A DNA stretch of 64,000 bases. Source: an uncultured Actinomycetota bacterium (GTDB lineage: Bacteria > Actinomycetota > Actinomycetes > Actinomycetales > JAHECE01). The notes beneath the pieces are model-generated. The model was not told the DNA's origin. It saw nothing but the letters and a program-made list of their open reading frames with translations, and ran no database searches. The stretch covers positions 981,454 through 1,045,453 of the forward strand of contig CAWACR010000003.1 in assembly GCA_963780675.1 (NCBI GenBank), given 5' to 3'. Position 1 is the stretch's first letter, and each line of letters opens with the position of its first letter. Shown here piece by piece: positions 17,487 through 38,209 of this stretch. Position numbers and translations under genes: made by a program.

Positions 17487-18725
17487 GTGAGAACCTCCGA
17501 GCCCGTGCCGTCGCCTGCGCCCCACCCGCAGCTCCACGCCTGGATCGACGCCCGGGGCGGCATCGCCGGTGACATGCTCCTGGGCGCCCTCGTCGATGCC
17601 GGCGCCCCGCTCGCCGCCCTCCAGCGCGCCGTCGACGCCGTCATCCCCGGCACCGTGCGGCTCAGGGCCGGCACCGTGCACCGTGCCGGCATGCGCGCGA
17701 CAAAGGTCGACGTCGACAAGGTCGCCGACGACCTCCCCCACCGGCACTGGACCGACATCCGCGCCATGCTCGAACGTGCGGACGTCGACGACCACGTCCG
17801 CGCTCGGGCGCTCGCCGTCTTCGGCCGGCTGGCCCTTGCGGAGGCCCGCGCGCACGGCATCCCGCCCGAACAGGTGCACTTCCACGAGGTCGGCGCCTGG
17901 GACTCGATCGCGGACGTCGTCGGGGTCGCCGCGGCGTTGCACGAACTCGGCGTGGCGACGCTCAGCGCCGGGCCAGTCGCCCTCGGTTCGGGCTCCGTCC
18001 GGACGGCGCACGGAGAGATCCCCGTCCCGGTGCCCGCGGTGCTCGAGCTCGCCGCCGGCCGGCGCGTTCTCGGGGGCGGCACGGGCGAGCTGGCCACGCC
18101 CACGGGGATGGCGGTGGTCGTCGCCCTGGCGGAGGCGTGCGACGAGATGCCGGACCTGGAGGTCACCGCCGTCGGCGTCGGCGCCGGCACGCGGGACACC
18201 GCGGGTCGACCCAACGTCGTCCGCGTGGTGCTCGGGACGGCGGCCGAGCCGCTCAAGGTGAGCGACGCCGTCGTCCTCGAGGCGAACGTCGACGACCTCG
18301 ACCCCCGGGTGTGGCCCGGCGTGCTCGCGGCGTTGCTCGAGGCGGGGGCGTCCGACGCGTGGCTCACGCCGATCCTCATGAAGAAGGGACGACCTGCCCA
18401 CACGCTCGCCGTGCTCGCGGCGCCCGCGCGGGTGCCCGAGCTGCGCTCGCGCGTGTTTGCCCTCGTGCCCACGCTCGGCGTCCGGGAGACGGGGGTGCGC
18501 AAGACGGCGCTCGAGCGGACGTGGCGCACCGTCGACGTCGACGGCGCCGCAGTCCGGATCAAGGTCGCCCACGCGCGCCGGGTGATCGCTACGGCGACGC
18601 CGGAGTTCGAGGACGTGGCGCACGCGGCGGCCGCCTCCGGAACGCCCGTCCGGCACGTCCTCGACCGCGCGGTTGCCGCGGCCGTCGAGGCCGGGCTGAC
18701 GTCGGGCCGGCGGCTCCCGGACTGA
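17487..18725 (+). CDS. larC: nickel-pincer cofactor biosynthesis protein LarC (nickel insertion, DUF111 family), single fused ORF
   Basis: HAWIDARGGIAGDMLLGALVDAG, HFHEVGAWDSIADVVG and LMKKGRPAHTL are present. The start is GTG at 17487 or 17505 and remains uncertain. Confidence 0.85.
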   Translation: MRTSEPVPSPAPHPQLHAWIDARGGIAGDMLLGALVDAGAPLAALQRAVDAVIPGTVRLRAGTVHRAGMRATKVDVDKVADDLPHRHWTDIRAMLERADVDDHVRARALAVFGRLALAEARAHGIPPEQVHFHEVGAWDSIADVVGVAAALHELGVATLSAGPVALGSGSVRTAHGEIPVPVPAVLELAAGRRVLGGGTGELATPTGMAVVVALAEACDEMPDLEVTAVGVGAGTRDTAGRPNVVRVVLGTAAEPLKVSDAVVLEANVDDLDPRVWPGVLAALLEAGASDAWLTPILMKKGRPAHTLAVLAAPARVPELRSRVFALVPTLGVRETGVRKTALERTWRTVDVDGAAVRIKVAHARRVIATATPEFEDVAHAAAASGTPVRHVLDRAVAAAVEAGLTSGRRLPD

Positions 18726-18763: not shown

Positions 18764-19444
18764 CTACCGCGGAGCGGCGATCTGGGCGGCGAGGTGCCCG
18801 GCACCGTAGCCGTTGTCGATATTGACGACGGCTACGCCCGGCGCGCACGAGTTGAGCATCGTCAGCAGAGCCGCGAGGCCCTCGAAGGCGGCTCCGTAGC
18901 CGACCGACGTCGGTACGGCCACCACCGGAGCGGACACGAGGCCCGCGACGACGCTCGGCAACGCCCCGTCCATCCCGGCGACGACGACGACGGCGCTCGC
19001 CCGGCGGAGGAGGTCCAGTCGCCCCAGCACCCGGTGCAGGCCCGCGACACCGACGTCCATGACCAGCTCGCAGGACCGGCCGAGATAGGTCGCGGTCAGG
19101 ACCGCCTCGCGGGCGACTCGCAGGTCCGAGGTGCCGGCCGCGGCCACGACCACGAGCCCGCCCGTGGCTTCCGGGGGCTCCGGCGGCCAGGCGAGGAGGC
19201 CGGCCTCGGCGTCGACCATGGCGTCCGGCAGCTCGGCGAGGACGGCCTCGACGTGCCCGTCGCGCGCGCGGGTGAACAGGGTCTGCGTGCCGTTCCGGCG
19301 CACTCCGGCGGCGATCACGCGGAGCTGGGCGGGGCTCTTGTGCTCGCAGTAGACGGCCTCGGGATAGCCGCGGCGGCGTGCGCGGTCGTGATCGAGATCG
19401 GCGATGCGCGCCAGCGAGGCGGGCACCTCCCACGCGTCAGCCAC
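18764..19444 (-). CDS. larB: nickel-pincer cofactor biosynthesis protein LarB (AIR-carboxylase-like)
   Basis: GTG at 19444 overlaps the larE 3' end by 8 nt. IADLDHDRARRRGYPEAVYC, AAAGTSDLRVAREA, VAGMDGALPSVVAG, VAVPTSVGYG and VNIDNGYGAG are present. Confidence 0.85.
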   Translation of the reverse strand: MADAWEVPASLARIADLDHDRARRRGYPEAVYCEHKSPAQLRVIAAGVRRNGTQTLFTRARDGHVEAVLAELPDAMVDAEAGLLAWPPEPPEATGGLVVVAAAGTSDLRVAREAVLTATYLGRSCELVMDVGVAGLHRVLGRLDLLRRASAVVVVAGMDGALPSVVAGLVSAPVVAVPTSVGYGAAFEGLAALLTMLNSCAPGVAVVNIDNGYGAGHLAAQIAAPR

Positions 19445-20324
19445 GGACGGCGACCAATGGAAGGGTGAAGGCGCCCGACTGGATCCCTGCCACGTCGAGA
19501 GCCACGAAACGGAAGCCGGCTGCCCGCACCACCCGGATGACCTGCTCGCGCAGGCCGGGCGAGACAGCGCGCACGAGGTCCTCGGCGGGCAGCTCGATCC
19601 GGGCGACGTCGCCGTGGTGGCGGACCCGGCAGTCCCCGAACCCCAGACCGCGCAGGGCCGACTCCGCGGCGTCGATCTGCCGCAGCTTCTCGGGCGTGAC
19701 CTCCTCGAAGTGCGGGATGCGCGAGGCCAGGCAGGGGGCGGCGGGCTTGTCGGCGCAGGGTAGGTCGAAGGCCCGGGCGACGGCCCGCACCGCCGGTTTG
19801 TCGAGGCCGGCATCGGCGAGCGGGCGGAGCACGGCGTGGTTCGTGGCAGCGCGGGACCCCGGGCGGTCGGGCCGGCGGGCGTCGTCGGCGTTCTCGCCGT
19901 AGGCGATGGCCGTCAGACCGAACCGGCCGGCGACGTCGTCGGAGATCCGCGTGAAGAGCTCGTCCTTGCAGTGGAAGCAGCGGTCGGGGCCATTGGCCCG
20001 GTAGGAGGGGTTGTCCCCCTCGTGCGTGGCGACCTCGACCAGGGGAACGCCGACATGGGCAGCGACGGCGTGCGCGGCAGCCCGCTCGTCCACGGCCAGG
20101 CTCGGCGAGACCCCGAGGACGGCGAGCGTGCGGTGGGCACCCAGCACGCGGACAGCGACGGCGAGCAGGACCGAGGAGTCGACGCCCCCGGAGAACGCCA
20201 CGCCGAGCCGGGCGGGCCGGCCGATCGCGGCGGCGACGCGCGCGATGGCGGCCTCGACGTCGACCTCGGTGCCGGTCGCCGGGGCACCGCCCGGCTGGCG
20301 GACAGGGGAATCGGGGGTGGCCAC
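19437..20324 (-). CDS. larE: ATP-dependent sacrificial sulfur transferase LarE (PP-loop ATPase)
   Basis: PP-loop [21 protein letters not shown] and the Cys-containing PCLASRIP are present. The start is taken as GTG at 20324; alternatives lie upstream as far as 20453. Confidence 0.8.
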
Positions 20325-20390: not shown

Positions 20391-20413
20391 GCAACTTCTG
20401 GCAAACGGTTGCC
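20391..20413. promoter_or_regulatory. candidate LacI-type operator (half-site + 14-mer) between larE and tal
   Basis: GCAAC-ttct-GGCAAACGGTTGCC. The 14-mer is a near-palindrome with a central CG. The same architecture occurs at 25871, 29395, 38188 and 40253. Confidence 0.4.
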
Positions 20414-20480: not shown

Positions 20481-21596
20481 ATGAACGAAGCCTTGCGCGC
20501 CCTCTCCGCGGAGGGAGTCGCCGTCTGGCTCGACGACCTCTCGCGCGATCGACTGACCACGGGCGGACTCGCCGCGCTCATGGCGGACAAGTCCGTTGTC
20601 GGCGTCACGACCAACCCGTCGATCTTCCAGGCCGCCATCACGGGGTCGGACCTGTACGCGGGCCAGGTGGAGGCCCTCGCCGCCCAGGGGGCCGACCCCG
20701 ACGCCGTCGTCCGCGCCCTCACCACCGACGACGTCCGCGCGGCGTGCGACCTCTTCGCACCCGTAGCGGAGGCCTCGGGCGGCGTCGACGGCCGCGTGTC
20801 CATCGAGGTCGACCCCCGGCTCGCGCACGACACCGAGGGCACCATCGCTCAGGCGCGCGAGCTGTGGGCCCAGATCGACAAGTCGAACCTGCTCGTCAAG
20901 ATCCCGGCGACCCTCGCCGGCCTCCCCGCGATCCGCACGGCCATCGCCGACGGGATCAGCGTGAACGTGACGCTCATCTTCTCCCTCGACCGCTACCGCG
21001 CCGTCATGGAGGCCTACCTCGGCGGGCTCGAGGACCGGCTCACCGCCGGCCTGCCCGTCACCGGCATCGCGTCGGTCGCGAGCTTCTTCGTCAGCCGCGT
21101 CGACACCGCGATCGACCCGCTGCTCGAGGCGATCGGAACGTCCGAGGCCCTCGACCTGCGCGGCAAGGCCGCGGTCGCCAACGCCCGCCTCGCCTACCAG
21201 GCGTACGAGGAGACCTTCAGCGGCCCCCGCTGGGCGACCCTCGCCACCGCCGGCGCCTGGCCTCAGCGGCCGCTCTGGGCGTCCACGGGCGTGAAGAACA
21301 AGGCGTACTCCGACACGCTCTACGTCACCGAGCTCGTGGCCCCGGGCACCGTGAACACGATGCCCGAGGCGACACTGCTCGCGGTGGCCGACCACGGCGT
21401 GGTCCACGGCGACACCATCCGCGGGGAGTACCCGGGCGCCGCGGCCGTCATGACCGCGCTCGCCGAGGTGGGCATTGACGTGGCCGCGGTGACCGAGAGG
21501 CTCGAGGCCGAGGGCGTCGAGAAGTTCGAGGTCGCCTGGGAGGAGCTCCTGGCCTCGGTCGAGGGCGCCATCGAGAACGTCCGCCCCAAGGTGTGA
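20481..21596 (+). CDS. tal: transaldolase (actinobacterial long type)
   Basis: ATG at 20481 lies 7 nt after [49 protein letters not shown] and ASFFVSRVD are present. Confidence 0.9.
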
Positions 21597-22621: not shown

Positions 22622-24104
22622 TCATGCCTCGATCTCGGTGCGGTCGCCCGACCACAGGGTGTGGAAGGTGCCGTCCTTGTCGATGCGCTTGTAGGTGTGG
22701 GCGCCGAAGAAGTCGCGCTGGCCCTGGACGAGGGCGGCGGGCAGGCGCTCGGCGCGCAGCCCGTCGTAGTACGACAGCGACGAGGCGAACGCCGGGCGTC
22801 GGGATGCCGTGCAGCGCGGCCTGGGACACGACGCGGCGCCACGCGCGACGCGCCGTCTCCATGACGTCGCGGAAGTACGGGTCGGCCAGCGAGGAGCGAC
22901 GAGGTCCGCCTGGCGCTCGTACGCCTCGGTGATGCGGTTGAGGAAGCACGCGCGGATGATGCAGCCGCCGCGCCAGATCCGGGCGATCGCCCCGCGGTCG
23001 ATGTCCCAGCCGTACTCCGCGCTCGCGCGGCGATCTGCGTCGAAGCCCTGCGAGTACGCGACGATCTTCGAGGCGTAGAGCGCCAGGCGCACGTCCTCGA
23101 TGAACGCGGCCCGGTCGGTGACCTGCCAGGAACCGGCCGGGCCGGGCAGGACGCCGCGGGCGGCCTCGCGCTGCGGGCTCCGGCTGGACAGCGCGCGGGC
23201 GAAGACGGCCTCGGCGATGCCCGAGACCGGGACGCCGAGGTCGAGCGCGGTCTGCACGGTCCAGCGCCCGGTGCCCTTCTGGCCGGCCTGGTCGACGATG
23301 ACGTCGACGAGCGGCTTGCCGGTCTCGGCGTCGACCTGCGCCAGCACCTCGGCGGTGATCTCGATGAGGTAGGACTCGAGGTCGCCGTCGTTCCACTCGG
23401 CGAAGATCTCGCGCGATCTCGGCGGGCGTCTCGCCCGTGCCCTGCCGGAGGAGGTCGTACGCCTCGGCGATGAGCTGCATGTCGGCGTACTCGATGCCGT
23501 TGTGCACCATCTTGACGAAGTGGCCGGCGCCGTCGGGGCCGACGTGGGTGCAGCACGGCTCGCCGTCGACGACGGCGGCGATCGACTCGAGGATCGGGCC
23601 GAGGGCGGCGTAGGACTCGTCCGAGCCGCCGGGCATGATCGACGGGCCCTTGAGCGCGCCCTCCTCGCCGCCGGAGATGCCGGCGCCGACGAAGTGGAGC
23701 CCGGTCTCGCGGAGCGCGGCCTCGCGGCGGATGGTGTCGGTGAAGAGCGCGTTGCCGCCGTCGACGATGATGTCGCCCGGCTCGAAGAGCGGGACGAGCT
23801 CGTCGATGACGGCGTCGGTGGCCGCGCCGGCCTGGACCATGATGATGATCCGTGCGGGGCCGTTCGAGGGTGGCGACGAACTCCTCGAGCCTCGTCGCGG
23901 GGACGAAGCGAGCCCTCGGCGCCGTGCTCAGCCATCGATGGCGGTCGTCCGGCCGGGGCTGCGGTTGTAGACGGCGACGGTGTTGCCCTCGCGGCTGGCG
24001 AGGTTGCGGGCGAGGTTGCTGCCCATCACCGCGAGGCCGACGACGCCGACCTGCGCGGTCGCGACGGTGCTGTCGCTGGGGGTGGGGATGGTGTCGGTGG
24101 TCAT
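22622..24104 (-). pseudogene. gnd: 6-phosphogluconate dehydrogenase (decarboxylating), frame broken about 6 times
   Basis: ATG at 24104 (MTTDTIPTPSDSTVATAQVGVVGLAVMGSNLARNLASREGNTVAVYNRS). Later pieces are in other frames: [51 protein letters not shown]...[16 protein letters not shown]...[41 protein letters not shown]...KGTGRWT...[20 protein letters not shown], and [33 protein letters not shown]. The frame changes lie between ~22790 and ~23935. Confidence 0.85.
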
Positions 24105-24241: not shown

Positions 24242-25693
24242 TCACGCCTTGGCGAGCGGCTCGACGGACGAGGTGGCCTCGCGCTCGGCGCGCCGCGCGG
24301 AGATCTCGCCGACGATGTCCTTGAACACCTTCTCCGTCAGCGGGTAGAAGGCCATGATCAGCAGAGAGATGAGGATGAAGCCGCCGGTCAGCGCGCCGGC
24401 CGCCAGCTGGATGCCCTCGATGGTGCCCGTGGACTGAGCCGTGCCGTCCTTGGCTGCCTGCGAGTTGAAGGCGACCCAACCGAGCGCGTACGCCCCGAAG
24501 GCACCGCCGAGGGCCTGCCCCATCTTGCGGGTGAAGGAGAACAGCGCGTAGGTGGTGCCCTCGGTGCGGATACCGGTCTTCCACTCGCCATACTCCACGG
24601 TGTCACCCTCGAGAGCCCACATGAGGGTGTTGACGCCGCCCATCCCGATGCCCAGGACGAAGAAGCCGAGCACCGCGACCATCGGGGTCTCCCGGGGGGC
24701 CAAGGCGAGGAGTGCACCGGCGAAGACGCCGACGATGCCCAGCGAGATGTAGCCGTTCTTCTTGCCGAACTTGCGGACGATCAGGGGGATGAAGGCCGCG
24801 ACGAGGAAGGTGCCGACCGCCTGGGCGACGGCGTTCCAGGCGATGAACTGGGGGTCGTTGAGGACGTAGATCGCGTAGTAGGGGGCCATCGTCCCGAGGG
24901 CGGTGAGGCCGGTGAGGAACATGAGGCTGCCGACGCACAGCCACAGCAGCGGCTTGTTGTGGGTCAGGGTGCCGAAGCTCTCCTTGAGGCTCGGCGCGGC
25001 GACGTCGCGGTGGACCCGCTCCTTCACGGTTGCCACCGTGTAGAGGTACAGGGCCATGCCGACGACGACGAAGATCGCCGTGGTGATGAAGAGGGACCGC
25101 TGGAGGCCGGTCGGGTCACCCACGAACTTCTTGATCTGCGGCGCCACCACGAAGGACAGCATGAGGATCGTGATGTTCGAGCCGTACACGCGCCACGTGG
25201 CGAGCTTGGCCCGCTCGGTCGGGACCTGTGTCATCGCCGGGGCGATCGAGCCGTAGGGGATGTTGACGAGGCTGTAGAGCGTGCCCATCACGGCGTAGGT
25301 GATGTACGCGTAGATCAGGCCCTGCGTCGCGCTCATGCCCGGGAAGAACGTGTTGGCCGAGAAGATCGCCATGCTCGAGACGAGCAGCGGCAGCGAGAAG
25401 TAGAGGATGAACGGCCGGAACTTGCCCAGCTTGCCCGGCCGCTTGCCGTCGACGGCCCGGCCGACGGCAAGGTCGGCGAGGGCGTCCCAGAACCGGATGA
25501 GCAGGAACATCGTGCCGAGCGGGGCGGCTTCGAGGCCGACGACGTTCGTGTAGTAGAGGAGGAGGAACGAACCCGCCATGGAGAAGGCCAGGTTGTTGGC
25601 GGCGTCGCCGGCGGCATAGCCGGAGTACTGCTTGAAGCCCAGTTTCGTGGGCGTGGTCGCCTTGGTGGGTCCTGGTCTGGTCAGGACTGACAT
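24242..25693 (-). CDS. glycoside-pentoside-hexuronide (GPH):cation symporter family transporter
   Basis: ATG at 25693 follows AGGAGA (MSVLTRPGPTKATTPTKLGFKQYSGYAAGDAANNLAF...). It has 12-TM topology and the GPH-typical RFWDALADLAVG and GKFRPFIL motifs. Confidence 0.8.
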   Translation of the reverse strand: MSVLTRPGPTKATTPTKLGFKQYSGYAAGDAANNLAFSMAGSFLLLYYTNVVGLEAAPLGTMFLLIRFWDALADLAVGRAVDGKRPGKLGKFRPFILYFSLPLLVSSMAIFSANTFFPGMSATQGLIYAYITYAVMGTLYSLVNIPYGSIAPAMTQVPTERAKLATWRVYGSNITILMLSFVVAPQIKKFVGDPTGLQRSLFITTAIFVVVGMALYLYTVATVKERVHRDVAAPSLKESFGTLTHNKPLLWLCVGSLMFLTGLTALGTMAPYYAIYVLNDPQFIAWNAVAQAVGTFLVAAFIPLIVRKFGKKNGYISLGIVGVFAGALLALAPRETPMVAVLGFFVLGIGMGGVNTLMWALEGDTVEYGEWKTGIRTEGTTYALFSFTRKMGQALGGAFGAYALGWVAFNSQAAKDGTAQSTGTIEGIQLAAGALTGGFILISLLIMAFYPLTEKVFKDIVGEISARRAEREATSSVEPLAKA

Positions 25694-25780
25694 GAGTGGA
25701 TCTCCTGTAGGTGTCAGGCTCTGGGCCTGGTGGACGGGTGGTGTTCGTGCGCCCATTGAGTCAGGGGCCTGGCTCGAGCG

Positions 25781-25803
25781 GCTATCGGTTGCTCTTTGTT
25801 GTC
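25781..25803. promoter_or_regulatory. candidate LacI-type operator (reverse orientation) in the GPH / lacI-1 divergent region
   Basis: The plus strand reads GCTATCGGTTGC-tcttt-GTTGTC. The reverse complement reads GACAAC-aaaga-GCAACCGATAGC. Confidence 0.35.
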
Positions 25804-25870
25804 CGCCGGTGCGGCTGGCTGGGTGCGACCACACGGTTGGGCCGCGGTGACGCTCTATTCCCCCAGCCGG

Positions 25871-25905
25871 GACAACCCCGTGACAATCGGTTGCCGTGTG
25901 TTGTC
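25871..25905. promoter_or_regulatory. candidate LacI-type operator flanked by half-sites in the GPH / lacI-1 divergent region
   Basis: GACAAC-cccgt-GACAATCGGTTGCC-gtgt-GTTGTC. The core has a central CG, and the outer half-sites are inverted. Confidence 0.45.
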
Positions 25906-25926: not shown

Positions 25927-26973
25927 GTGACGGACGACGGCACGAGGCGGCCGGCCCCGACCATCTACGACGTCGCCCGGGTGGCGGGTGTGGCCCCGTC
26001 GACGGTGTCGCGCGCCTTCTCGCGACCGGGGCGCGTCAACTCGGAGACTGCGGCCCGGATCCGAGCAGTGGCGGAGGAGCTGGGGTACCGGGCGAACCCC
26101 GTGGCCCGCGCGCTGTCGACTTCCCGCACCCAGATGGTCGCGGTGATGATCTCCGACGTCACGAATCCCTTCTACGCACCCCTGATCCGGGGCGCCCAGT
26201 CCGCCGCGGCGGAGGCCGGCTTCGTCGTGCTCCTCGAGGACGCGCAGGAGTCCGGCCAGATCGAGCGCCAAGCCCTGGAGCGTGTGCTGCCCGTCGTCGA
26301 GGGGATCGTCATCGGAAGCTCCCGGGTGTCGGACACGGCGCTGCGGATGATCGCCAAGCAGAAGCCGATGGTCGTGCTGAACCGCGAGGTCTCGGGCATC
26401 CCCAGCGTCGTCACGGACAACCCCCGGGGGATGCGGCGGGCCGCCGAGCACCTCGGGGAGCTCGGGCACGTCGGCATCACCTACGTGGCCGGTCCCGAGG
26501 CCTCGTGGGCCGACGGCGTGCGCTGGCGGGCACTCCGCGAGGCCGGGCACGAACTCGAGCTGACCGTCCGCCGGGTCGGCCCGTTCATCCCGACCGTAGC
26601 GGGCGGCCTCAAGGCCGCAGACCAGTTGGTCGAGGGCCGGCCTCCCACCGCCGTCATCGCCTACAACGACCTCATGGCCATCGGCGTCATCCGAGGGCTC
26701 GAGCGAGCCGGGCTGCACGTGCCGCGCGACGTGAGCGTGGTCGGCTTCGACGACATCCTCGGGGCCCAGCTCGTGACGCCGGCCCTGACCACCGTCGCGG
26801 CTCCCCTCCACACGATGGGCGTGATGGCCGTCCGCAACCTCCTGGCCATCGTCAAGGGCGCCCGCGCCCAGACCGGCCACGCCTTCGTCCTGCCCACCCG
26901 GCTGATGGTCCGGGACTCGACCGCGCGGCGCAGGACCGGGCCGGATCGCCCGGCCGACCCGCCGACCCCCTGA
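25927..26973 (+). CDS. LacI-family transcriptional regulator (paralog 1)
   Basis: N-terminal HTH (PTIYDVARVAGVAPSTVSRAFSRPGRV) followed by a periplasmic-binding-protein-like sugar-binding core. GTG start at 25927. Confidence 0.85.
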   Translation: MTDDGTRRPAPTIYDVARVAGVAPSTVSRAFSRPGRVNSETAARIRAVAEELGYRANPVARALSTSRTQMVAVMISDVTNPFYAPLIRGAQSAAAEAGFVVLLEDAQESGQIERQALERVLPVVEGIVIGSSRVSDTALRMIAKQKPMVVLNREVSGIPSVVTDNPRGMRRAAEHLGELGHVGITYVAGPEASWADGVRWRALREAGHELELTVRRVGPFIPTVAGGLKAADQLVEGRPPTAVIAYNDLMAIGVIRGLERAGLHVPRDVSVVGFDDILGAQLVTPALTTVAAPLHTMGVMAVRNLLAIVKGARAQTGHAFVLPTRLMVRDSTARRRTGPDRPADPPTP

Positions 26974-27072: not shown

Positions 27073-28128
27073 TTGACAGGTCCGTCCGTCCCGACGATCT
27101 ACGACGTCGCGAAGCTAGCCGGCGTCTCGGCGTCGACGGTCTCCCGTGCGTACTCGCGTCCGGGCCGGGTCGCCCCGGGGACGTCCGAACGGATCCTGGG
27201 CTCCGCCGCGAGACTCGGCTATCGCGCCCACGTCGTCGAGGCGGCGCCGTCCGGGAACGCCGACGTCGTGGCCTTGATCGTCCCCGATTGCGCGAGCCGC
27301 TTCGATGCAGAACTGGTGCACTGGATGGGCACCTACGCCGCGCGGGCCGGCCACTCGGTGGCAGTGGTCCTCGTCGGAACCGAGGACTCCCGGCTGGGTG
27401 AACGTCCATCCATCGAGAGGGTGCTCCCCGCCGTCGGCGGGGTCGTGATCTCCGGGCCTCGCATGCCCGACTCGACCATCCGCGTGATCGCGAAGCAGCG
27501 GCCGACGGTGGTGCTGAACCGGGTGGTCGCCGACGTCCCCAGCGTGGTCCGCGACACCCTGCACGGCATGCGCCTGGCGGTCGAGCACTTGGCGACGCTC
27601 GGCCATCACGACGTGACCTACGTCGCGGGCCCCGCGGACTCGTGGGCGGACGGGGTCCGCTGGCGCTCGATCCGGGAGGCGTCGCTTGACCTCGGGGTGC
27701 ACGCGCGCCGGATCGGCCCCTGTCCGGCGGACATCGCGTCTGGGGTGCGGGCGGCCGACGAGCTGCTCGCCCAGCGCGACTCGGCGGCCATCGCCTTCAA
27801 CGACGTCCTCGCCCTCGGCGTCATCCGTGGCCTTGCTGCCCGTGGACGTCGCGTCCCGGCCGACGTGAGCGTCGTCGGCGTCGACGACATCGAGTTCGCC
27901 TCGCTCGTGACCCCCTCGCTGACCACGGTCAGCCTCTCCAAGCAGGTGATGTGCGCCCTTGCCACGGCGACCCTCGACAGGCTCATGCGAGGCGAGACAC
28001 CCGGGCCGGACGACCGCGTCCAAGTGGTGCCCGCCCGGCTCGTCGTCCGCGACTCGACCGCTCAGCGCAGGCGGAAGAGCACCTCTCCGGCGTTGGGCAC
28101 GACCAGGGTCTCCGGATCGGACTCGTAG
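27073..28128 (+). CDS. LacI-family transcriptional regulator (paralog 2)
   Basis: TTG at 27073 follows GGGAGG. The HTH is PTIYDVAKLAGVSASTVSRAYSRPGRV. It aligns with paralog 1 along its whole length. The 3' tail overlaps the convergent LarA-like gene by 67 nt. Confidence 0.8.
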   Translation: MTGPSVPTIYDVAKLAGVSASTVSRAYSRPGRVAPGTSERILGSAARLGYRAHVVEAAPSGNADVVALIVPDCASRFDAELVHWMGTYAARAGHSVAVVLVGTEDSRLGERPSIERVLPAVGGVVISGPRMPDSTIRVIAKQRPTVVLNRVVADVPSVVRDTLHGMRLAVEHLATLGHHDVTYVAGPADSWADGVRWRSIREASLDLGVHARRIGPCPADIASGVRAADELLAQRDSAAIAFNDVLALGVIRGLAARGRRVPADVSVVGVDDIEFASLVTPSLTTVSLSKQVMCALATATLDRLMRGETPGPDDRVQVVPARLVVRDSTAQRRRKSTSPALGTTRVSGSDS

Positions 28129-29351
28129 GCCGCCAGGTCGAAGTCCTGGGGGGCGATGTAGCCGAGGTTCGCCTTGCGCACCTTCTCCTCGGGGATCGTC
28201 GTGACGAGCGTGACGTCCACGCGGCACTTCTCGCCCTCGACCTCGTCGTACGTCCCGGCACCGCGCAGGTGCGTGCTGTGCGCGAGGACGCCCCAGTGCA
28301 CGTCCTTGAACCGGTCCCACTGCTTCACGAAGTAGTCCCGGCAGTGGTAGCCGATCTCGTAGATCTCGTGGTGGGTGAACGAGATCTCGGAGATGTGCGG
28401 GGCATAGATGATGACCTCGCCGCCGTCCGCGACGACGGGCTCGAGCTTGTAGAAGCCCTTGGCCGCCGTCCAGATCTCCGGGTACTTCTCGGGGATGATC
28501 GAGACGACGCGCTTCACCGGGGCATCCAGGTACCGGACGTGCGTCTCGGCGGTGACCTCGGCCGCGGACGCCCACGCGGTCTCTGTGGTACCGAACGTCA
28601 CGGCGTGCAGGGAGTACGAGCCGGCCTGCGGCACGATGCACAGCGCGAGCTTCTCGCTCGGGATGAGGTTCGACGCCTCGTTGATGAGGGCACGCACGGG
28701 CGTGATCCCGCGGGTGCCGATGATCTGAGCACTCGTGATCAGGGCGCCGACCCAGTGGGTGAGATCGATGATGTCCTGACCGGCGACACCCGGGAAGAAG
28801 TACTTGTTGCCGCCCGACATGCCCACCACCTCGTGCGGGAGGACCGGGCCGATGACCAGGGCGACGTCGTTCTCGACGACGGCGCGGTTGAGGTCCACCT
28901 TCGCCGGGACGTCGAGCCGTCCCTCGGTCAGCTCCTTCACCCGCTCGGCGCTGATCGTGCCCAGCGAGGCGAACGTCTCCGGCTCCCACCACTCGTGCTG
29001 GATGACGTTCAGGCCCGGGTACGTGGCCTCCAACCCGTGCTCCTCGTACCCCATCCAGTGAGCGAGCTCCGTCTCGCTCATCGCGGCGTGGGTCCCCAGG
29101 GCGATGAGGGCTGTGAGGGCGCTCACCCGGCCGACGAGGGCTTCGTGCACGCAGGAGAGGAGCATCGGCAAGGGGCTGCTGCGGGTGGCGTCCGGGAGGA
29201 CGAGGCACACGCTCTTGCCGTCGAGGTCGGCACCGCCGAGGGACTCGAGGATGAAGGCGCGCACCTCCTCGGTGGTGAGAACCCGGTCCGGTCCGCCGAT
29301 CCGGGAAGCGTCACGGGCCAGCGCGGAGACGTCGTCGAGAGTCGCGGTCAT
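28062..29351 (-). CDS. LarA-family nickel-pincer-dependent 2-hydroxyacid racemase/epimerase homolog (DUF2088)
   Basis: ATG at 29351 (MTATLDDVSALARD...). LVLPDATRS is present. PHEVVGMSGGNKYFFPG matches the LarA H..G.SGG.K..PG segment that carries the cofactor-tethering Lys. LAHSTHLRG is also present. Substrate is unknown. Confidence 0.75.
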   Translation of the reverse strand: MTATLDDVSALARDASRIGGPDRVLTTEEVRAFILESLGGADLDGKSVCLVLPDATRSSPLPMLLSCVHEALVGRVSALTALIALGTHAAMSETELAHWMGYEEHGLEATYPGLNVIQHEWWEPETFASLGTISAERVKELTEGRLDVPAKVDLNRAVVENDVALVIGPVLPHEVVGMSGGNKYFFPGVAGQDIIDLTHWVGALITSAQIIGTRGITPVRALINEASNLIPSEKLALCIVPQAGSYSLHAVTFGTTETAWASAAEVTAETHVRYLDAPVKRVVSIIPEKYPEIWTAAKGFYKLEPVVADGGEVIIYAPHISEISFTHHEIYEIGYHCRDYFVKQWDRFKDVHWGVLAHSTHLRGAGTYDEVEGEKCRVDVTLVTTIPEEKVRKANLGYIAPQDFDLAAYESDPETLVVPNAGEVLFRLR

Positions 29352-29360
29352 AACCCCACC

Positions 29361-29386
29361 TTGCCCCGACGACGATGGCGGGGCAA
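29361..29386. promoter_or_regulatory. inverted repeat TTGCCCCG-N10-CGGGGCAA in the larA-like / uxaC divergent region
   Basis: The arms are identical to the two halves of the palindrome at 17395-17408. Confidence 0.35.
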
Positions 29387-29394
29387 GGGCCCGC

Positions 29395-29418
29395 GGCAAC
29401 ACCCGGCAACCGATTGCC
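29395..29418. promoter_or_regulatory. candidate LacI-type operator (half-site + 14-mer) in the larA-like / uxaC divergent region
   Basis: GGCAAC-accc-GGCAACCGATTGCC, with a central CG. Confidence 0.45.
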
Positions 29419-29448: not shown

Positions 29449-30858
29449 ATGGCCACGCTCACCCTGCATCCCGATCGCCTCCTGCCCGCCGACCCGACCA
29501 CCCGCGGCATCGCCCGTGAGCTCTACGCCGCGGTGCGCGACCTTCCGATCATCTCCCCCCACGGCCACGTCCCGCCGCAGTGGCTGGCCGACGACGTCCC
29601 CTTCGAGGACCCGACCTCTCTGCTCATCACGCCGGACCACTACGTGAACCGGATGATGCACGCGCACGGCGTGTCGCTGTCCGACCTGGGCGTGGGCCAG
29701 AGCGGGTTCACTCCTGAGCAGTCGCGCAACGCCTTCCGCATCCTCTGCTCGCACTGGAAGGCCTACCGCGGCACCCCGGTGAAATTCTGGTTCGAGTCCG
29801 AGCTCGTCGACATCTTCGGGATCGAGGTCGTGCCCTCGGCGGAGACGGCCGACGAGATCTACGACGCCATCGCCGAGAGGATCGCGACCCCCGAGTTCCT
29901 GCCGCGGGCCCTGTACCGGTCGTTCCCGATCGAGTTCATCGCCACGACCGATGACCCGTCCGACGACCTGCGCCACCACATCAAGCTCGCGGACGACCCC
30001 ACCTGGGACGGCTCAGTCGCCCCGACCTTCCGCCCGGACAAGTACCTGGAGCCCGCCACGCCCGCCTGGAACGGCCTCGTCGACCGGCTCGCCGAGGTCT
30101 CGGGCATCGACACGGGCACCTACGCCGGCTGGGTCGCCGCGATGGAGAACCGGCGCGCCTTCTTCAAGGCCAACGGCGCCGTCTCCACCGACCACTCCCA
30201 CCGCGACGCACGCGTCGAGCCGATCAGCGACGCCGAGGCCGAGCGCCTGTACGACCTGGCCCGCGCGGGAACGATCACGGTCGAGGAAGGCCACACCCTC
30301 CGCCGGAACTTCATGTTCCAGCAGGCCCGGATGGCCGCGGACGACGGCTTGGTCATGACGCTGCACCCGGCGGTCTACCGCAACCACCACAGCCCGACCT
30401 TTGAGAAGTACGGCGCCGACGTCGGTGGCGATATCCCGATGGGCGTGGAGTTCACCAACGCCGTCCAGCCGATGCTGTCGGCGTTCGGCACGGCCCCCAA
30501 CTTCCAGGTCATCTTCTTCACGATCGACGAGACCGTGTACTCGCGCGAGCTCGCTCCGCTGGCCGGCTTCTACCCGTCGGTCTACATCGGCGCCCCGTGG
30601 TGGTTCATCGACTCGCCCGAGGCCATGACCCGGTACCGCAGCGCGGTCACCGAGACGGCCGGCTTCTCCCGCACGTCGGGCTTCATCGACGACACCCGGG
30701 CGTACCTGTCGATCCCCGCCCGCCACGACACCAACCGCCGGATGGACTCGGGCTTCCTCGCGAAGCTCGTCGCCGACCACCGCCTGACCATGGACGAGGC
30801 CCTCGACACCGCCTACGACCTCGTCGTCACCAACCCCAGGAAGGCCTTCAAGCTGTGA
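29449..30858 (+). CDS. uxaC: glucuronate isomerase
   Basis: ATG at 29449 (MATLTLHPDRLLPADPTTRGIARELYAAVRDLPIISPHGHV...). The TIM-barrel UxaC family signature runs throughout, including FTIDETVYSRELAPLAG and WWFIDSPE. Confidence 0.9.
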   Translation: MATLTLHPDRLLPADPTTRGIARELYAAVRDLPIISPHGHVPPQWLADDVPFEDPTSLLITPDHYVNRMMHAHGVSLSDLGVGQSGFTPEQSRNAFRILCSHWKAYRGTPVKFWFESELVDIFGIEVVPSAETADEIYDAIAERIATPEFLPRALYRSFPIEFIATTDDPSDDLRHHIKLADDPTWDGSVAPTFRPDKYLEPATPAWNGLVDRLAEVSGIDTGTYAGWVAAMENRRAFFKANGAVSTDHSHRDARVEPISDAEAERLYDLARAGTITVEEGHTLRRNFMFQQARMAADDGLVMTLHPAVYRNHHSPTFEKYGADVGGDIPMGVEFTNAVQPMLSAFGTAPNFQVIFFTIDETVYSRELAPLAGFYPSVYIGAPWWFIDSPEAMTRYRSAVTETAGFSRTSGFIDDTRAYLSIPARHDTNRRMDSGFLAKLVADHRLTMDEALDTAYDLVVTNPRKAFKL

Positions 30859-32243
30859 GCGACACGACCACCCCCGCCCCCCGGCTCTCCCGGGCGGCCG
30901 GCCACGGCCGACCGGCCGCACCCGTGCGCATCGTGCACGTGGGCCTCGGCAACTTCTTTCGGGCGCACCAGGCCTGGTACACGGACAAGGCGCCCGACGC
31001 GGCCGAGTGGGGCATCGCGGCCTTCACCGGTCGATCGGCCGCCATGGCGAACGCTCTGAACCCGCAGGACGGCCTCTACACGCTCATCACCCGGGGTGCG
31101 ACCGACTCGTTCGACGTCATCTCGAGCGTCTCAGCCGTGCACGCGGCGTCCGACCACGAGGCCTGGGTCCGCTACTGGTCCTCTCCGGACCTCGCCGTCG
31201 TCACCCTCACGGTGACGGAGGCCGGCTATATGCGCGCCCCCGGTGGCGCCCTCGACACCTCGCGCGAGGACGTCCGGGCCGACATCGCAGCGCTGACGGC
31301 CGACCCGCTGGCCCCGGCGGCCACCGCGCCCGGCCGGATCGTCTCCGGCTACCTGGCGCGTCGCGCTGCCGGCGCGGGAGCGATCGCGATCGTGCCGTGC
31401 GACAACCTCCCCGACAACGGCCCGGCGCTGACGCGGGTGGTCGGCGACTTCATCGCGGCAGTCGACCCGACCCTGGCCGACTGGGCCGCCGAGAACGTGG
31501 CGTTCGGCACGACGATGGTCGACCGGATCACTCCGGCGACCACGGACGAGCACCGTCAGGCCGTTCTCGCCGCCCTCGGCGTGGTCGACGCCTCCCCGGT
31601 GCCGACCGAGCCGTTCAGCGAGTGGGTCATCTCCGGTGAGTTCCCGAAGGGGCGGCCGGCGTGGGACGCCGCAGGCGCGTCGATCGTCGACGACGTGGTG
31701 CCCTTCGAGCAGCGCAAGTTGTGGCTGCTCAACGGCTCGCACTCACTCCTCGCCTACTCCGGCACGATCCGCGGCCACGAGACCGTGGCCGACGCGATCA
31801 ACGACCCGGTGAACCGGGCCTGGGTCGAGGAGTGGTGGGACGAGGCGTCCCGCCATCTCACCCTTCCCGAGGCCGACGTCGCGGCGTACCGGCAGGCGCT
31901 CCTGACGCGGTTCGAGAGCCCCAACATCCGCCACGTCCTCGCCCAGATCGCCGCCGACGGATCCCAGAAGATCCCGGTGCGGATCGTCCCGACCCTGCGG
32001 GCCGATCTGGCCGCCGGCCGGGTGCCCGTGGGCGCGACGCGCGCCGTCGCCGCGTGGGTCTGCCACCTGCGCGGCCTCGGCGCCCCGATCAAGGACGCCC
32101 GCGCGGCCGAGGTCGCCCCGTTCGGTGAGGGCAGCCTGGAGCAGTCGGTCGAAAAGGTCCTCGCCTTCCTCGGCGACGATCTCGCCGCCGACGGGCGAGT
32201 GGTCGCCGCCGTGCTGGCGCACGCCCGCGGATTCTCGGCGTAG
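30855..32243 (+). CDS. uxuB: mannitol dehydrogenase-family oxidoreductase, fructuronate/mannonate reductase-like
   Basis: GTG at 30855 overlaps the uxaC stop (GTGA). IVHVGLGNFFRAHQAWY, TVTEAGY, VPCDNLPDNG, MVDRITP and KLWLLNGSHS are present. Substrate assignment rests on context only. Confidence 0.7.
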   Translation: MSDTTTPAPRLSRAAGHGRPAAPVRIVHVGLGNFFRAHQAWYTDKAPDAAEWGIAAFTGRSAAMANALNPQDGLYTLITRGATDSFDVISSVSAVHAASDHEAWVRYWSSPDLAVVTLTVTEAGYMRAPGGALDTSREDVRADIAALTADPLAPAATAPGRIVSGYLARRAAGAGAIAIVPCDNLPDNGPALTRVVGDFIAAVDPTLADWAAENVAFGTTMVDRITPATTDEHRQAVLAALGVVDASPVPTEPFSEWVISGEFPKGRPAWDAAGASIVDDVVPFEQRKLWLLNGSHSLLAYSGTIRGHETVADAINDPVNRAWVEEWWDEASRHLTLPEADVAAYRQALLTRFESPNIRHVLAQIAADGSQKIPVRIVPTLRADLAAGRVPVGATRAVAAWVCHLRGLGAPIKDARAAEVAPFGEGSLEQSVEKVLAFLGDDLAADGRVVAAVLAHARGFSA

Positions 32244-32257
32244 GGGGCGGCGGGACC

Positions 32258-33820
32258 ATGACGACCTCAGTCGACGAGGCCGGCCGGACCGGCGAGGCCG
32301 GCCCGGCGGCTGAGGTCGTCATCGGTCTCGACGTCGGGACCACCGCCACGAAGGCCGTCGCCTTCGAGCTCGGCTCGGCCTGGCGGTACACCGCCATCCG
32401 CGAGTACCCGCTCATAGCACCCCAGCCGGGGTGGCAGGTCCAGGAGCCCGCGGCGATCAGTGCGGCCGTGGTGAGCGCGCTGGCCGAGTGCGTGGCAGCG
32501 GTGGGCGGAGCCCCCATCATTGCGCTCTCCGTCAGCACCGCCATGCACGCGGTCATCGGCCTGGACGCGCAGCTCGAGCCCCTGACGTCGATGATCACCT
32601 GGGCCGATGCACGGTCCACGGCCGAGGCGCGCGGCCTGCGCGCGTCCGACCTCGCCACGGACCTCTACCGGACCTCCGGGACGCCCATCCACCCGATGAC
32701 GCCCCTGACCAAGATCATGTGGTATTCGCGCCGGGAGCCGGTGTTCACCTCGCGCGTGCGGTGGTGGGCCGGGTTGAAGGACTTCGTGCTGGTCACGCTC
32801 ACCGGGACGATGGCGACCGAGCTCTCGTCGGCGTCCGGCACCGCGATGCTCGACCTCACCACCCGGGACTGGAGCCCGCTGGCGATCGAGCTGGCGGGCA
32901 TCCGAGCCGACCAGCTCCCCCCGATCCTGCCGACGACGGCGACGCTCGGGCTCTCCGAGGCGGTCGCCGCCGCCGTCGGGCTGCCGGCCGGGCTGCCGGT
33001 CGTCGTGGGAGCGGGCGACGGCCCGCTGGGGAACGTCGGGACGGGCGCGATGGCGCCCGGCGTCGCCGGGCTCTCGCTCGGCACGAGCGGCGCCGTACGG
33101 ATGCTCGTGCCCCGGCCCACGCTCGACCCGGCCGGACGGCTCTTCTGCTACGCCCTGACCGAGGACCAGTGGATCGTCGGCGGCGCGGTGAGCAACGGCG
33201 GCGTGGTGGTCCGGTGGGCCGGCGAGGTGTTCGGCCACGGCCTCGGCGCCTCGGACGACACGCCGCACGACGCCGAGCTCCTCGCTCTCGCCGAGGCGGT
33301 CCCGCCGGGGAGCGACGGCCTGCTCATGCTGCCCTACCTGCTGGCGGAGAGGGCGCCGCTGTGGGATCCCGACCTTGCGGGCGCCTACCTGGGCATTCGG
33401 CACGGGCACACCCGCGGCCACTTCGTCCGCGCGACGGTCGAGGGCGTCGCGCTGCAGCTCTCGACCATCGTCGAGGCGCTCGACCGGATCGAGCCGGTGC
33501 GGTCCCTGCGGGCGACGGGCGGGGCGTTCCGCTCCGTGCTCTGGCGCCGTGTGCTCGCGGCCGCCCTGGGGCGTCCGGTCACCGTCACCGCGGGCGCCGA
33601 GGGCTCCGCGCTTGGGGTGGCCGCCCTCGCCCTCGTCGCCCTCGGGCGGGCGCCGGACCTGACCTCCGCCGTCGAGGCTCTCGGTCCGCCGACGGACGCG
33701 CGGCCGGTCGAGGTGCCCGAGGTGGCGAGCCCGGGCGAGGTCGCGTTCTACCGAGGGCTGCGGGCGTCGGTGCCGAGTCTCCTCGCGGCGTACGACGAGG
33801 TGGCACGGCTGTTCGCGTGA
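32258..33820 (+). CDS. gntK: FGGY-family carbohydrate kinase, gluconokinase-like
   Basis: VIGLDVGTTATKAVAF, GWQVQEP, TWADARS, GAGDGPLGNVGTGA and GGAFRS are present. The gluconate assignment is by resemblance to FGGY-type GntK and by context. Confidence 0.65.
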   Translation: MTTSVDEAGRTGEAGPAAEVVIGLDVGTTATKAVAFELGSAWRYTAIREYPLIAPQPGWQVQEPAAISAAVVSALAECVAAVGGAPIIALSVSTAMHAVIGLDAQLEPLTSMITWADARSTAEARGLRASDLATDLYRTSGTPIHPMTPLTKIMWYSRREPVFTSRVRWWAGLKDFVLVTLTGTMATELSSASGTAMLDLTTRDWSPLAIELAGIRADQLPPILPTTATLGLSEAVAAAVGLPAGLPVVVGAGDGPLGNVGTGAMAPGVAGLSLGTSGAVRMLVPRPTLDPAGRLFCYALTEDQWIVGGAVSNGGVVVRWAGEVFGHGLGASDDTPHDAELLALAEAVPPGSDGLLMLPYLLAERAPLWDPDLAGAYLGIRHGHTRGHFVRATVEGVALQLSTIVEALDRIEPVRSLRATGGAFRSVLWRRVLAAALGRPVTVTAGAEGSALGVAALALVALGRAPDLTSAVEALGPPTDARPVEVPEVASPGEVAFYRGLRASVPSLLAAYDEVARLFA

Positions 33821-38085: not shown

Positions 38086-38187
38086 CGTGGGTCTCCGATC
38101 AGTTGCATGGCGGCACTCGTGCCGGTCGGCCGCACGGGCGGGACCGAACGAGCATGGGCCGACGCTAGAGACGGCTTCGACACGCGG

Positions 38188-38209
38188 CCATCGTTTGCCG
38201 TCTGTTGCC
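38188..38209. promoter_or_regulatory. candidate LacI-type operator (reverse orientation, right arm degenerate)
   Basis: The reverse complement reads GGCAAC-agac-GGCAAACGATGG. It lies in the divergent region between 38085 and 38455. Confidence 0.3.

What the first reader, a model, noticed from the sequence alone, without database searches (positions are those of the whole stretch)
28062..29351. LarA-family enzyme located away from the lar genes and inside a sugar-acid cluster
The 429-aa product carries LarA-like segments. LVLPDATRS lies near the N-terminus. PHEVVGMSGGNKYFFPG matches the His...Gly-Gly-x-Lys region that holds the cofactor-tethering lysine in lactate racemase. Its partners are uxaC, a mannonate-type reductase and a gluconokinase-like kinase, not lactate-metabolism genes. 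Its 3' end overlaps the convergent LacI gene by 67 nt.
Basis: partly seen in the sequence, partly recalled or inferred. Interest (0 to 1): 0.6.

Follow-up and report, generated by a model that had tools for sequence, protein, structure and literature searches.

The report
Nickel-cofactor mannonate/gluconate epimerase (GntE type)
The gene encodes an ordinary member of an already described branch of the lactate-racemase superfamily, a nickel-pincer-cofactor sugar-acid 2-epimerase that most likely lets this actinobacterium feed glucuronate into the pentose phosphate pathway through gluconate.

Summary
A 429-aa minus-strand ORF (28062-29351) is an intact LarA-superfamily protein with all cofactor and catalytic residues. 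It lies beside uxaC, a fructuronate-reductase-like gene and an FGGY kinase, and overlaps a convergent LacI gene by 67 nt.

It is not a new kind of enzyme. It matches 20 of 20 signature positions of published LarA-homolog Group 19. It is 52% identical to Corynebacterium glutamicum GntE1 and 34% identical to Thermotoga GntE2 (PDB 4NAR), both assayed D-gluconate 2-epimerases. The AlphaFold model matches 4NAR (TM 0.87). The gene context (LarB/C/E, LacI, glucuronate isomerase, mannitol-type dehydrogenase) is the one already tabulated for Group 19.

Most likely role: glucuronate, fructuronate, D-mannonate, D-gluconate, 6-phosphogluconate, pentose phosphate pathway.

- It is the only LarA homolog found in the genome.
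- UxuA, ManD, Eda and P-loop gluconokinase were not found (genome 86% complete).
- One LacI-type operator recurs at the tkt/larC, larE/tal, transporter/lacI and gntE/uxaC promoters.

Still open: whether epimerisation precedes or follows phosphorylation (6-phosphomannonate).

The scan's own notes on this window had already recorded the operator and the gnd frame breaks.

The parts
28062..29351 (-). gntE-type LarA homolog (LarAH Group 19), 429 aa. Key residues: D54, R57, H88, H173, E174, V175, K183, H199, K298, A357, H358.
29405..29418 (.). LacI-type palindromic operator GGCAACCGATTGCC in the 97-nt divergent gntE/uxaC intergenic region.
   Evidence: 0 mismatches. Conserved upstream of gntE in at least 13 related loci.
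29449..30858 (+). uxaC, glucuronate isomerase.
   Evidence: Pfam UxaC, 245 bits; NF002794, 545 bits, above cut-off 387
30855..32243 (+). Mannitol-dehydrogenase-family reductase, most like fructuronate reductase UxuB. Its GTG start overlaps the uxaC stop by 4 nt.
   Evidence: fructuronate reductase 270 bits versus tagaturonate reductase 171 bits, both below cut-off
32258..33820 (+). FGGY-family hexonate kinase (gluconokinase-like; could be a mannonate kinase).
   Evidence: TIGR01314, 367 bits, cut-off 649. No P-loop gluconokinase found in the genome.
27073..28128 (+). LacI_2, an extra LacI paralog (50% identical to LacI_1). It is convergent with gntE and overlaps it by 67 nt.
   Evidence: Absent from the closest relative L088.
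25927..26973 (+). LacI_1, ortholog (74%) of the single LacI in the closest relative. Candidate repressor of the regulon.
24242..25693 (-). GPH-family glucuronide/hexuronide transporter.
   Evidence: glucuronide transporter 467 bits, cut-off 528; TIGR00792 above cut-off
25780..25895 (.). Two operator copies (25780-25793 and 25882-25895) in the transporter/lacI_1 divergent promoter region.
22622..24104 (-). gnd, 6-phosphogluconate dehydrogenase. It is the only copy in the genome and is broken by about six single-base frame changes in this assembly.
20481..21596 (+). Transaldolase.
20400..20413 (.). Operator GGCAAACGGTTGCC in the larE/tal divergent promoter region.
   Evidence: 0 mismatches
19437..20324 (-). 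larE, sulfur transferase for the nickel-pincer cofactor. The start codon is uncertain.
   Evidence: TIGR00268, 266 bits, cut-off 150
18764..19444 (-). larB, carboxylase/hydrolase for the cofactor.
   Evidence: NF033503, 270 bits, cut-off 175
17541..18725 (+). larC, nickel insertase (single ORF).
   Evidence: PF01969, 422 bits
17376..17389 (.). Weaker operator copy (2 mismatches) in the tkt/larC divergent promoter region.

Best explanation
The gene encodes a nickel-pincer-nucleotide (NPN) dependent 2-hydroxyacid epimerase of LarA-homolog Group 19 (GntE1 type). The cofactor is made by LarB, LarE and LarC. It is tethered to K183, and H199 completes the nickel coordination. H88 and H173 alternately take and give the C2 proton while the hydride is parked on the cofactor (proton-coupled hydride transfer through a 2-keto intermediate). 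The result is inversion of C2 of a hexonate. In this cluster the physiological reaction is most likely D-mannonate to D-gluconate. A glucuronide or glucuronate is imported by the GPH transporter. UxaC makes fructuronate, the UxuB-like reductase makes D-mannonate, and GntE makes D-gluconate. The FGGY kinase then makes 6-phosphogluconate, and Gnd plus the adjacent tal, tkt, rpe and rpiB genes take it through the pentose phosphate pathway. The transporter, gntE/uxaC, larBE/tal and tkt/larC promoters share one LacI-type operator, so cofactor synthesis is probably induced together with its only client enzyme. Shown here: family membership, residues, fold, gene content and operator sites. Inferred: substrate, direction, order of steps and regulation.
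For: - Homology: PDB 4NAR (T. maritima GntE2) is the best hit at E 4.5e-60.
- Signature: 20 of 20 Group 19 signature positions match. Identity is 52% to the assayed GntE1 and 61-68% to other actinobacterial Group 19 members, against 34% to Group 20 and 27% to Group 18.
- Structure: AlphaFold pLDDT 93.3. Foldseek ranks 4NAR first (TM 0.87/0.89), then LarA structures at TM about 0.7.
- Residues: D54, R57, H88, H173, K183, H199 and K298 are invariant in 40 homologs. They correspond to LarA D72, R75, H108, H174, K184, H200 and K298 through the GntE2 numbering in PMC7583248.
- Pocket: E, V, A, H, the GntE pattern given in PMC11770544.
- Cofactor genes: larB, larC and larE are present and above cut-offs. 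This is the only Lar_N hit in the genome.
- Neighbours: UxaC, a UxuB-like reductase and an FGGY gluconokinase-like kinase. The closest relative has the same order.
- Related loci: UxaC lies within 10 kb in 46 of 80 and UxuB in 48 of 80.
- Class sample of 201 genomes: 18 of 20 GntE19-positive genomes have UxaC, against 12 of 181 others. In 12 of the 18 the two genes are divergent neighbours, spread over 7 families.
- Alternative routes: UxuA, ManD, Eda and P-loop GntK were not found in this genome.
- Operator: 13 strand matches against 1.7 expected, reached by 0 of 100 shuffles. All seven good sites lie in promoter regions, and the site is conserved upstream of gntE in many genera.
- Published context: the table for Group 19 lists LarE, LarB, LacI, glucuronate isomerase, mannitol/altronate dehydrogenase, LarC and beta-glucuronidase.
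Against: - The only assayed Group 19 enzyme, GntE1, has a KM of 120 mM for D-mannonate. Its authors suspected a different native substrate.
- The reductase and the kinase both score below their NCBIfam cut-offs, so their substrates are not fixed.
- gnd, the required next step, carries about six frame breaks in this assembly.
- Eda is present in 12 of 20 GntE19-positive genomes, so this route does not generally replace the classical lower pathway.
- The genome is only 85.7% complete, so the absences are provisional.
- No expression or activity data could be obtained.
Confidence: 0.62

Rival explanations
1. The net pathway is the same but the order is reversed. The FGGY kinase is a mannonate kinase, and the LarA homolog is the so far unidentified 6-phosphomannonate 2-epimerase, converting 6-phospho-D-mannonate to 6-phosphogluconate.
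For: Lactobacillus suebicus extracts convert mannonate only after ATP addition, and they interconvert 6-phosphomannonate and 6-phosphogluconate. The epimerase gene is unidentified, and a gntE homolog is abundant in galacturonate-grown cells (PMC6978723). GntE1 has a KM of 120 mM for free mannonate. Phosphorylated substrates are not mentioned in either LarA-superfamily survey. The FGGY kinase is below the gluconokinase cut-off. Group 19 has polar or basic S359, T360 and H361 where GntE2 has V, I and N.
Against: GntE1 and GntE2 do epimerise free D-mannonate in vitro, with kcat of 59 and 197 per s. An FGGY kinase lies within 10 kb in only 11 of 80 related loci. I have no structural evidence for a phosphate site, because the model coordinates could not be inspected.
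Confidence: 0.2
2. It is an NPN-dependent 2-epimerase for another sugar acid of uronate metabolism. Candidates are D-altronate/D-allonate, L-gulonate/L-idonate, or an aldarate such as D-glucarate/D-mannarate, the last suggested by the authors of the family.
For: High KM of GntE1 for mannonate and the authors' own suggestion. UxaC also acts on galacturonate (established knowledge). The reductase is below the cut-off for both fructuronate and tagaturonate reductase.
Against: The reductase scores 270 bits for fructuronate reductase against 171 for tagaturonate reductase. The kinase is most like gluconokinase, and gnd and pentose phosphate genes are adjacent. No uronate dehydrogenase or glucarate dehydratase genes appeared among those annotated in the window.
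Confidence: 0.12
3. It is a true lactate racemase that happens to lie in a sugar-acid cluster.
For: Same superfamily and the same cofactor and catalytic residues.
Against: NCBIfam LarA scores 53 bits against a cut-off of 460. The pocket is E, V, A, H instead of F, F, W, E/Q. GntE1 and GntE2 showed no lactate racemase activity (Table 1 of PMC7583248). No lactate-metabolism genes appeared among those annotated in the window.
Confidence: 0.01

Closest known systems
LarAH19 / GntE1 of Corynebacterium glutamicum (WP_004567503.1; Group 19 of Desguin et al. 2020, PMC7583248)
   Same: 52% identical over about 390 residues. 19 of 20 signature positions are identical to GntE1 itself, and 20 of 20 to the Group 19 consensus. 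Same actinobacterial setting and same context type (LarB/C/E, LacI, UxaC, mannitol-type dehydrogenase).
   Different: L356 instead of I. Here the cluster also holds an FGGY kinase, a glucuronide transporter and gnd plus pentose phosphate genes, and the lar genes sit among the pentose phosphate genes under the same operator.
LarAH20 / GntE2 of Thermotoga maritima (TM0442, PDB 4NAR)
   Same: Same fold (TM 0.87, rmsd 2.5 A), the same catalytic and cofactor residues, and the same proposed pathway position between fructuronate reductase and an FGGY gluconokinase, with gnd nearby.
   Different: Only 34% identical. Eight of 20 signature positions differ (S, A, G, N, A, V, I, N), so it is a different LarAH group.
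Lactate racemase LarA of Lactiplantibacillus plantarum (PDB 5HUQ)
   Same: Two-domain fold (TM about 0.7), Lys-tethered nickel-pincer cofactor, and the two-histidine proton-coupled hydride transfer residues.
   Different: 15-16% identity. The hydrophobic pocket F175/F176/W358 is replaced by E/V/A plus H. The substrate is a hexonate, not lactate, and the gene is not in a larABCDE operon.
Mannonate kinase / 6-phosphomannonate 2-epimerase route of Lactobacillus suebicus (PMC6978723)
   Same: Links the upper hexuronate isomerase pathway to 6-phosphogluconate, bypassing UxuA, KdgK and Eda.
   Different: There the order is kinase first, then epimerase, and the genes are unassigned. Here the order is unknown.

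Membership tests
LarA superfamily (NPN-dependent 2-hydroxyacid racemases/epimerases) | Lar_N domain (PF09861) above the gathering score | tested here: met
   69.8 bits against 23.3
LarA superfamily (NPN-dependent 2-hydroxyacid racemases/epimerases) | Two-domain LarA fold | tested here: met
   AlphaFold pLDDT 93.3. Foldseek: 4NAR TM 0.87; 9EIA, 2YJG and 5HUQ TM 0.68-0.74; probability 1.00. The Pfam C-terminal LarA model is not hit, as in all close homologs.
LarA superfamily (NPN-dependent 2-hydroxyacid racemases/epimerases) | Cofactor residues: Arg (R75), tethering Lys (K184) and Ni-ligand His (H200) | tested here: met
   R57, K183 and H199 align to GntE2 R41, K164 and H180, and are invariant in 40 homologs
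LarA superfamily (NPN-dependent 2-hydroxyacid racemases/epimerases) | Catalytic residues D72, H108, H174 and K298 | tested here: met
   D54, H88, H173 and K298
LarA superfamily (NPN-dependent 2-hydroxyacid racemases/epimerases) | LarB, LarC and LarE present to make the cofactor | tested here: met
   NF033503 270 bits, TIGR00268 266 bits, PF01969 422 bits, all in the window
LarA superfamily (NPN-dependent 2-hydroxyacid racemases/epimerases) | Nickel-pincer cofactor actually bound | not testable with these tools
   Needs purified protein (mass spectrometry, metal analysis)
LarAH Group 19 (GntE1-type D-gluconate 2-epimerase) | 20-position signature D R H H E V K H V W T A K G L A S T H R (Dataset S2 of PMC7583248) | tested here: met
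   20 of 20. The same alignment reproduces the published signatures of the Group 18, 19 and 20 reference sequences.
LarAH Group 19 (GntE1-type D-gluconate 2-epimerase) | Closest by sequence to Group 19 members | tested here: met
   45-68% identity to nine Group 19 members, against 34% to Group 20 and 27% to Group 18. No tree was built.
LarAH Group 19 (GntE1-type D-gluconate 2-epimerase) | Published context: LarB/E/C, LacI, glucuronate isomerase, mannitol/altronate dehydrogenase | tested here: met
   Also seen in 80 related loci.
LarAH Group 19 (GntE1-type D-gluconate 2-epimerase) | D-mannonate/D-gluconate 2-epimerase activity | not testable with these tools
   Assayed only for GntE1 (KM 120 mM) and GntE2
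Lactate racemase LarA sensu stricto | NCBIfam NF033504 above 460 bits | tested here: not met
   53.2 bits
Lactate racemase LarA sensu stricto | Pocket residues F, F, W, E/Q at LarA positions 175, 176, 358, 359 | tested here: not met
   E174, V175, A357, H358
LarAH Group 18 (NCBIfam NF052594, putative hexonate epimerase) | Score above 500 bits | tested here: not met
   163.9 bits. It is the best NCBIfam hit but far below the cut-off. 27% identity and 7 of 20 signature positions differ.
LarAH Group 20 (GntE2, 4NAR) | Group 20 signature (…E S…A W T G K N A A V I N R) | tested here: not met
   8 of 20 positions differ; 34% identity

The most novel reading that the evidence does not exclude
Group 19 LarA homologs, this one included, are the missing 6-phosphomannonate 2-epimerase, and the adjacent FGGY kinase is a mannonate kinase. 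That would explain GntE1's KM of 120 mM for free mannonate and assign genes to the two orphan activities found in Lactobacillus suebicus. In addition, one LacI regulator would switch on transporter, pathway, pentose phosphate genes and nickel-cofactor synthesis together.
Probability: 0.2. Interest if true: 0.55.

Novelty: new member of a known kind. Interest (0 to 1): 0.2.

Why it matters
For annotation, the gene should be named an NPN-dependent hexonate (D-gluconate/D-mannonate) 2-epimerase of the GntE1 type. The databases currently call it and thousands of homologs 'lactate racemase domain-containing protein'. For biology it adds little, because the family, one assayed member and the gene context are published.

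Two small points go beyond the papers. First, in this genome the epimerase route is the only detectable outlet for mannonate, which argues that mannonate or its 6-phosphate is a real substrate of Group 19. Second, the cofactor genes appear to belong to the same LacI regulon as the pathway. The order of phosphorylation and epimerisation remains an open question that is easy to test.

Tried and rejected
- GntE replacing the classical pathway: I tested this across 201 genomes. UxuA is rare in the class anyway (5 of 201; 1 of 18 GntE19+UxaC+ genomes), and Eda is present in 12 of 20 GntE19-positive genomes. The replacement idea holds for this genome but not in general.
- ManD: the only strong enolase-superfamily hit in the genome is MenC, not a mannonate dehydratase.
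- Possible 5'UTR hairpin: the inverted repeat 29361-29386 just upstream of the gntE start folds no better than shuffles (z = -1.06), so I make no claim of an RNA element.
- Unbiased clustering of neighbour ORFs in 80 loci: two frequent clusters had no Pfam hit and look like antisense ORFs of this high-GC DNA. I used the tblastn counts instead.
- NCBIfam has no model that captures Group 19; the best hit is the Group 18 model, far below its cut-off.
- I did not build a phylogenetic tree. The supplement sequences are cut at 400 residues, and signature plus identity already separate the groups.
- The AlphaFold coordinates could not be inspected, so I could not look for a phosphate site.
Full report
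**Observation.** The window is high-GC DNA (about 70% GC). The minus strand of 28062-29351 encodes a 429-aa protein starting MTATLDDV. A longer ORF reaches 29510. Homologs are 426-431 aa and share this N-terminus, and an AAGGTGG sequence lies just upstream of the ATG, so the 429-aa start is the supported one. The 67-nt overlap with the convergent LacI ORF 27073-28128 is real as ORF arithmetic. It arises mainly from a 17-aa non-conserved tail of that LacI. The overlapped C-terminus of the target is conserved among homologs.

**What it is.**
- Pfam finds only Lar_N (69.8 bits).
- NCBIfam's best hit is the Group 18 'putative hexonate epimerase' model at 164 bits (cut-off 500). The lactate racemase model scores 53 bits (cut-off 460).
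- The best solved structure by sequence is 4NAR (E 4.5e-60). Desguin et al. identify this as GntE2, an assayed D-gluconate 2-epimerase of Thermotoga maritima (PMC7583248).
- The same paper defines 25 LarA-homolog groups by a 20-position signature. Its Dataset S2 lists the Group 19 members, among them GntE1 of Corynebacterium glutamicum.
- I aligned the target with nine Group 19, two Group 18 and one Group 20 sequences. The alignment reproduces the published signature of every reference and gives the target D R H H E V K H V W T A K G L A S T H R, the Group 19 consensus, 20 of 20.
- Identity is 52% to GntE1, 61-68% to other actinobacterial Group 19 members, 34% to GntE2 and 27% to Group 18.
- The residues equivalent to LarA D72, R75, H108, H174, K184, H200 and K298 are D54, R57, H88, H173, K183, H199 and K298. 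They are invariant in 40 homologs of 55-94% identity.
- The four specificity positions read E, V, A, H. Urdiain-Arraiza et al. give this as the GntE pattern, against F, F, W, E/Q for lactate racemases (PMC11770544).
- An AlphaFold model (pLDDT 93.3) matches 4NAR with TM 0.87/0.89 and rmsd 2.5 A. All further significant hits are LarA-family structures.
- The family is very large: more than 8000 database proteins, mostly annotated 'lactate racemase domain-containing protein'. At least 597 species genomes have a match.

**Surroundings.** Gene order:
- rpe, rpiB and tkt (minus strand)
- larC (plus strand)
- larB-larE (minus strand)
- tal (plus strand)
- an aldose-1-epimerase-family gene and gnd (minus strand)
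- a GPH glucuronide transporter (minus strand)
- lacI_1 and lacI_2 (plus strand)
- the target (minus strand)
- uxaC, a uxuB-like reductase, an FGGY kinase and a PfkB kinase (plus strand)
- then TIM-barrel/Gfo oxidoreductase pairs and GH3 glycosidases

The closest relative (94% identical protein, locus L088) has the same order: transporter, LacI, target, UxaC, reductase, FGGY kinase. It has only one LacI and no PfkB kinase. LacI_1 is the ortholog of that single LacI (74%). LacI_2 is a 50% paralog.

**Genome-wide checks.** The genome is 3.28 Mb in 13 contigs and 85.7% complete.
- The target is the only Lar_N hit, so LarB, LarC and LarE have no other LarA-type client.
- UxuA was not found.
- KDPG aldolase (Eda) was not found.
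- P-loop gluconokinase was not found.
- The only strong enolase-superfamily protein is MenC, not ManD.
- gnd is single-copy.
- A CbiM-type transporter component exists on another contig. A NiCoT-type transporter was not found.

**Conservation of the context.**
- In 80 related loci from many actinobacterial genera, the following lie within 10 kb: UxaC in 46, the reductase in 48, a LacI in about 32, LarB/C/E in about 30, an FGGY kinase in 11, and a GH2 (beta-glucuronidase-like) gene in 8.
- This is the published Group 19 context (Table S1 of PMC7583248).
- In an even sample of 201 genomes of the class, 20 carry a Group 19-like gene. Of these, 18 also have UxaC, against 12 of the 181 others.
- In 12 of those 18, gntE and uxaC are divergent neighbours, spread over 7 families.
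- These genomes are related to one another, so the counts describe the sample and are not a statistical test.

**Regulation.**
- The palindrome GGCAAMCGRTTGCC, with up to 2 mismatches, gives 13 strand matches in the window. 1.7 are expected, and none of 100 shuffles reaches 13.
- Seven of the eight distinct sites lie in promoter regions:
  - tkt/larC (17376)
  - larE/tal (20400)
  - transporter/lacI_1 (25780 and 25882)
  - gntE/uxaC (29405)
  - two sites in the downstream TIM/Gfo/GH3 cluster (38186 and 40263)
- The same site lies 40-170 nt upstream of the gntE match in at least 13 related loci from Kineococcus, Streptomyces, Kribbella, Modestobacter, Actinotalea, Nocardia, Actinoplanes and others.
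- The lar genes are therefore physically apart from the target but probably belong to its regulon. This is an inference from sequence; binding was not tested.

**Mechanism.**
- By homology the enzyme inverts C2 of a 2-hydroxyacid. It works by proton-coupled hydride transfer to the Lys-tethered nickel-pincer cofactor, with H88 and H173 as acid and base.
- The flanking genes make a coherent route: glucuronate, fructuronate (UxaC), D-mannonate (UxuB-like), D-gluconate (target), 6-phosphogluconate (FGGY kinase), then Gnd and the pentose phosphate enzymes next door.
- This is the route proposed for Thermotoga and supported by the GntE2 assay (Rodionova et al. 2012, as cited in PMC6978723).
- In this genome no alternative outlet for mannonate was detected.

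**Caveats and rivals.**
- GntE1, the only assayed Group 19 enzyme, has a KM of 120 mM for D-mannonate. Its authors suspected another native substrate, such as an aldarate.
- Valk et al. showed that Lactobacillus suebicus phosphorylates mannonate first and then epimerises 6-phosphomannonate. The genes are unassigned, and a gntE homolog is abundant in the proteome (PMC6978723).
- Neither LarA-superfamily survey mentions phosphorylated substrates, and no other paper in the library mentions 6-phosphomannonate.
- The order of kinase and epimerase is therefore open here. I put the reversed order at about 0.2.
- The reductase and kinase are both below their NCBIfam cut-offs.
- Eda is present in 12 of 20 GntE19-positive genomes, so the route coexists with, rather than generally replaces, the classical lower pathway.

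**State of gnd.**
- Relative to intact homologs, gnd carries three single-base insertions in its first 250 nt.
- A fourth lies near 23410, in GAGATCGCG[C]GAGATC.
- A compensating pair lies near 22900 and 22795 (reading; also noted earlier as e1-3220843).
- tkt is split as well, and a class II aminoacyl-tRNA synthetase is present only as a fragment.
- All genes of the hexuronate cluster and the lar genes are intact.
- Essential genes are affected and the breaks come in patches. I think assembly or polishing error in a metagenome-derived genome is more likely than decay.

**Verdict.** This is an ordinary new member of LarAH Group 19. Interest is low. The residual interest lies in the unresolved native substrate of Group 19 and in the shared LacI operator that ties nickel-cofactor synthesis and pentose phosphate genes to the hexuronate cluster.

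Noticed in passing
window 22622-24104 (-): The only gnd copy in the genome has about six single-base frame changes: three insertions in the first 250 nt relative to the 94%-relative's contig, one near 23410, and a compensating pair near 22900/22795. Its neighbours are intact. This is probably assembly or polishing error, but it is unverified.
   Followed up: partly
window 15210-17341 (-): Transketolase is split. The N-terminal and pyrimidine-binding domains are in one frame (15293-17341), and the C-terminal domain is in another frame (15210-15686).
   Followed up: partly
window 3757-4500 (-): Only the C-terminal part of a class II aminoacyl-tRNA synthetase (end of the core domain plus the anticodon-binding domain) is in frame. 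This is another broken housekeeping gene in this assembly.
   Followed up: no
window 27073-28128 (+) and 33950-35023 (+): A second LacI paralog (50% identical to LacI_1) and a PfkB kinase (KDG-kinase-like, below all cut-offs) are present here. Both are absent from the otherwise syntenic contig of the closest relative (L088).
   Followed up: partly
window 29361-29386 and 17395-17408: A perfect inverted repeat, TTGCCCCG-N10-CGGGGCAA, lies just upstream of the gntE start. A related palindrome, TTGCCCCGGGGCAA, lies in the tkt/larC spacer. As RNA the first folds no better than shuffles (z = -1.06). It may be a second regulator's site.
   Followed up: partly
window 38186-38199 and 40263-40276: The same LacI-type operator occurs in the promoter regions of the downstream TIM-barrel/Gfo-oxidoreductase and HAD/GH3 genes. 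This suggests that this glycoside-processing module belongs to the same regulon.
   Followed up: no
window 21703-22620 (-): An aldose-1-epimerase-family gene lies immediately downstream of gnd with almost no spacer. It has no NCBIfam match and its role is unknown.
   Followed up: no
G000 contig 2, 68020-68640 (locus L089): A CbiM-type ECF transporter component is present, a candidate nickel or cobalt importer. No NiCoT-type transporter was found in the genome.
   Followed up: no
class sample: None of the 8 sampled genomes of the window's own order carries a Group 19 gene, although 4 of them have UxaC. The distribution is patchy.
   Followed up: no
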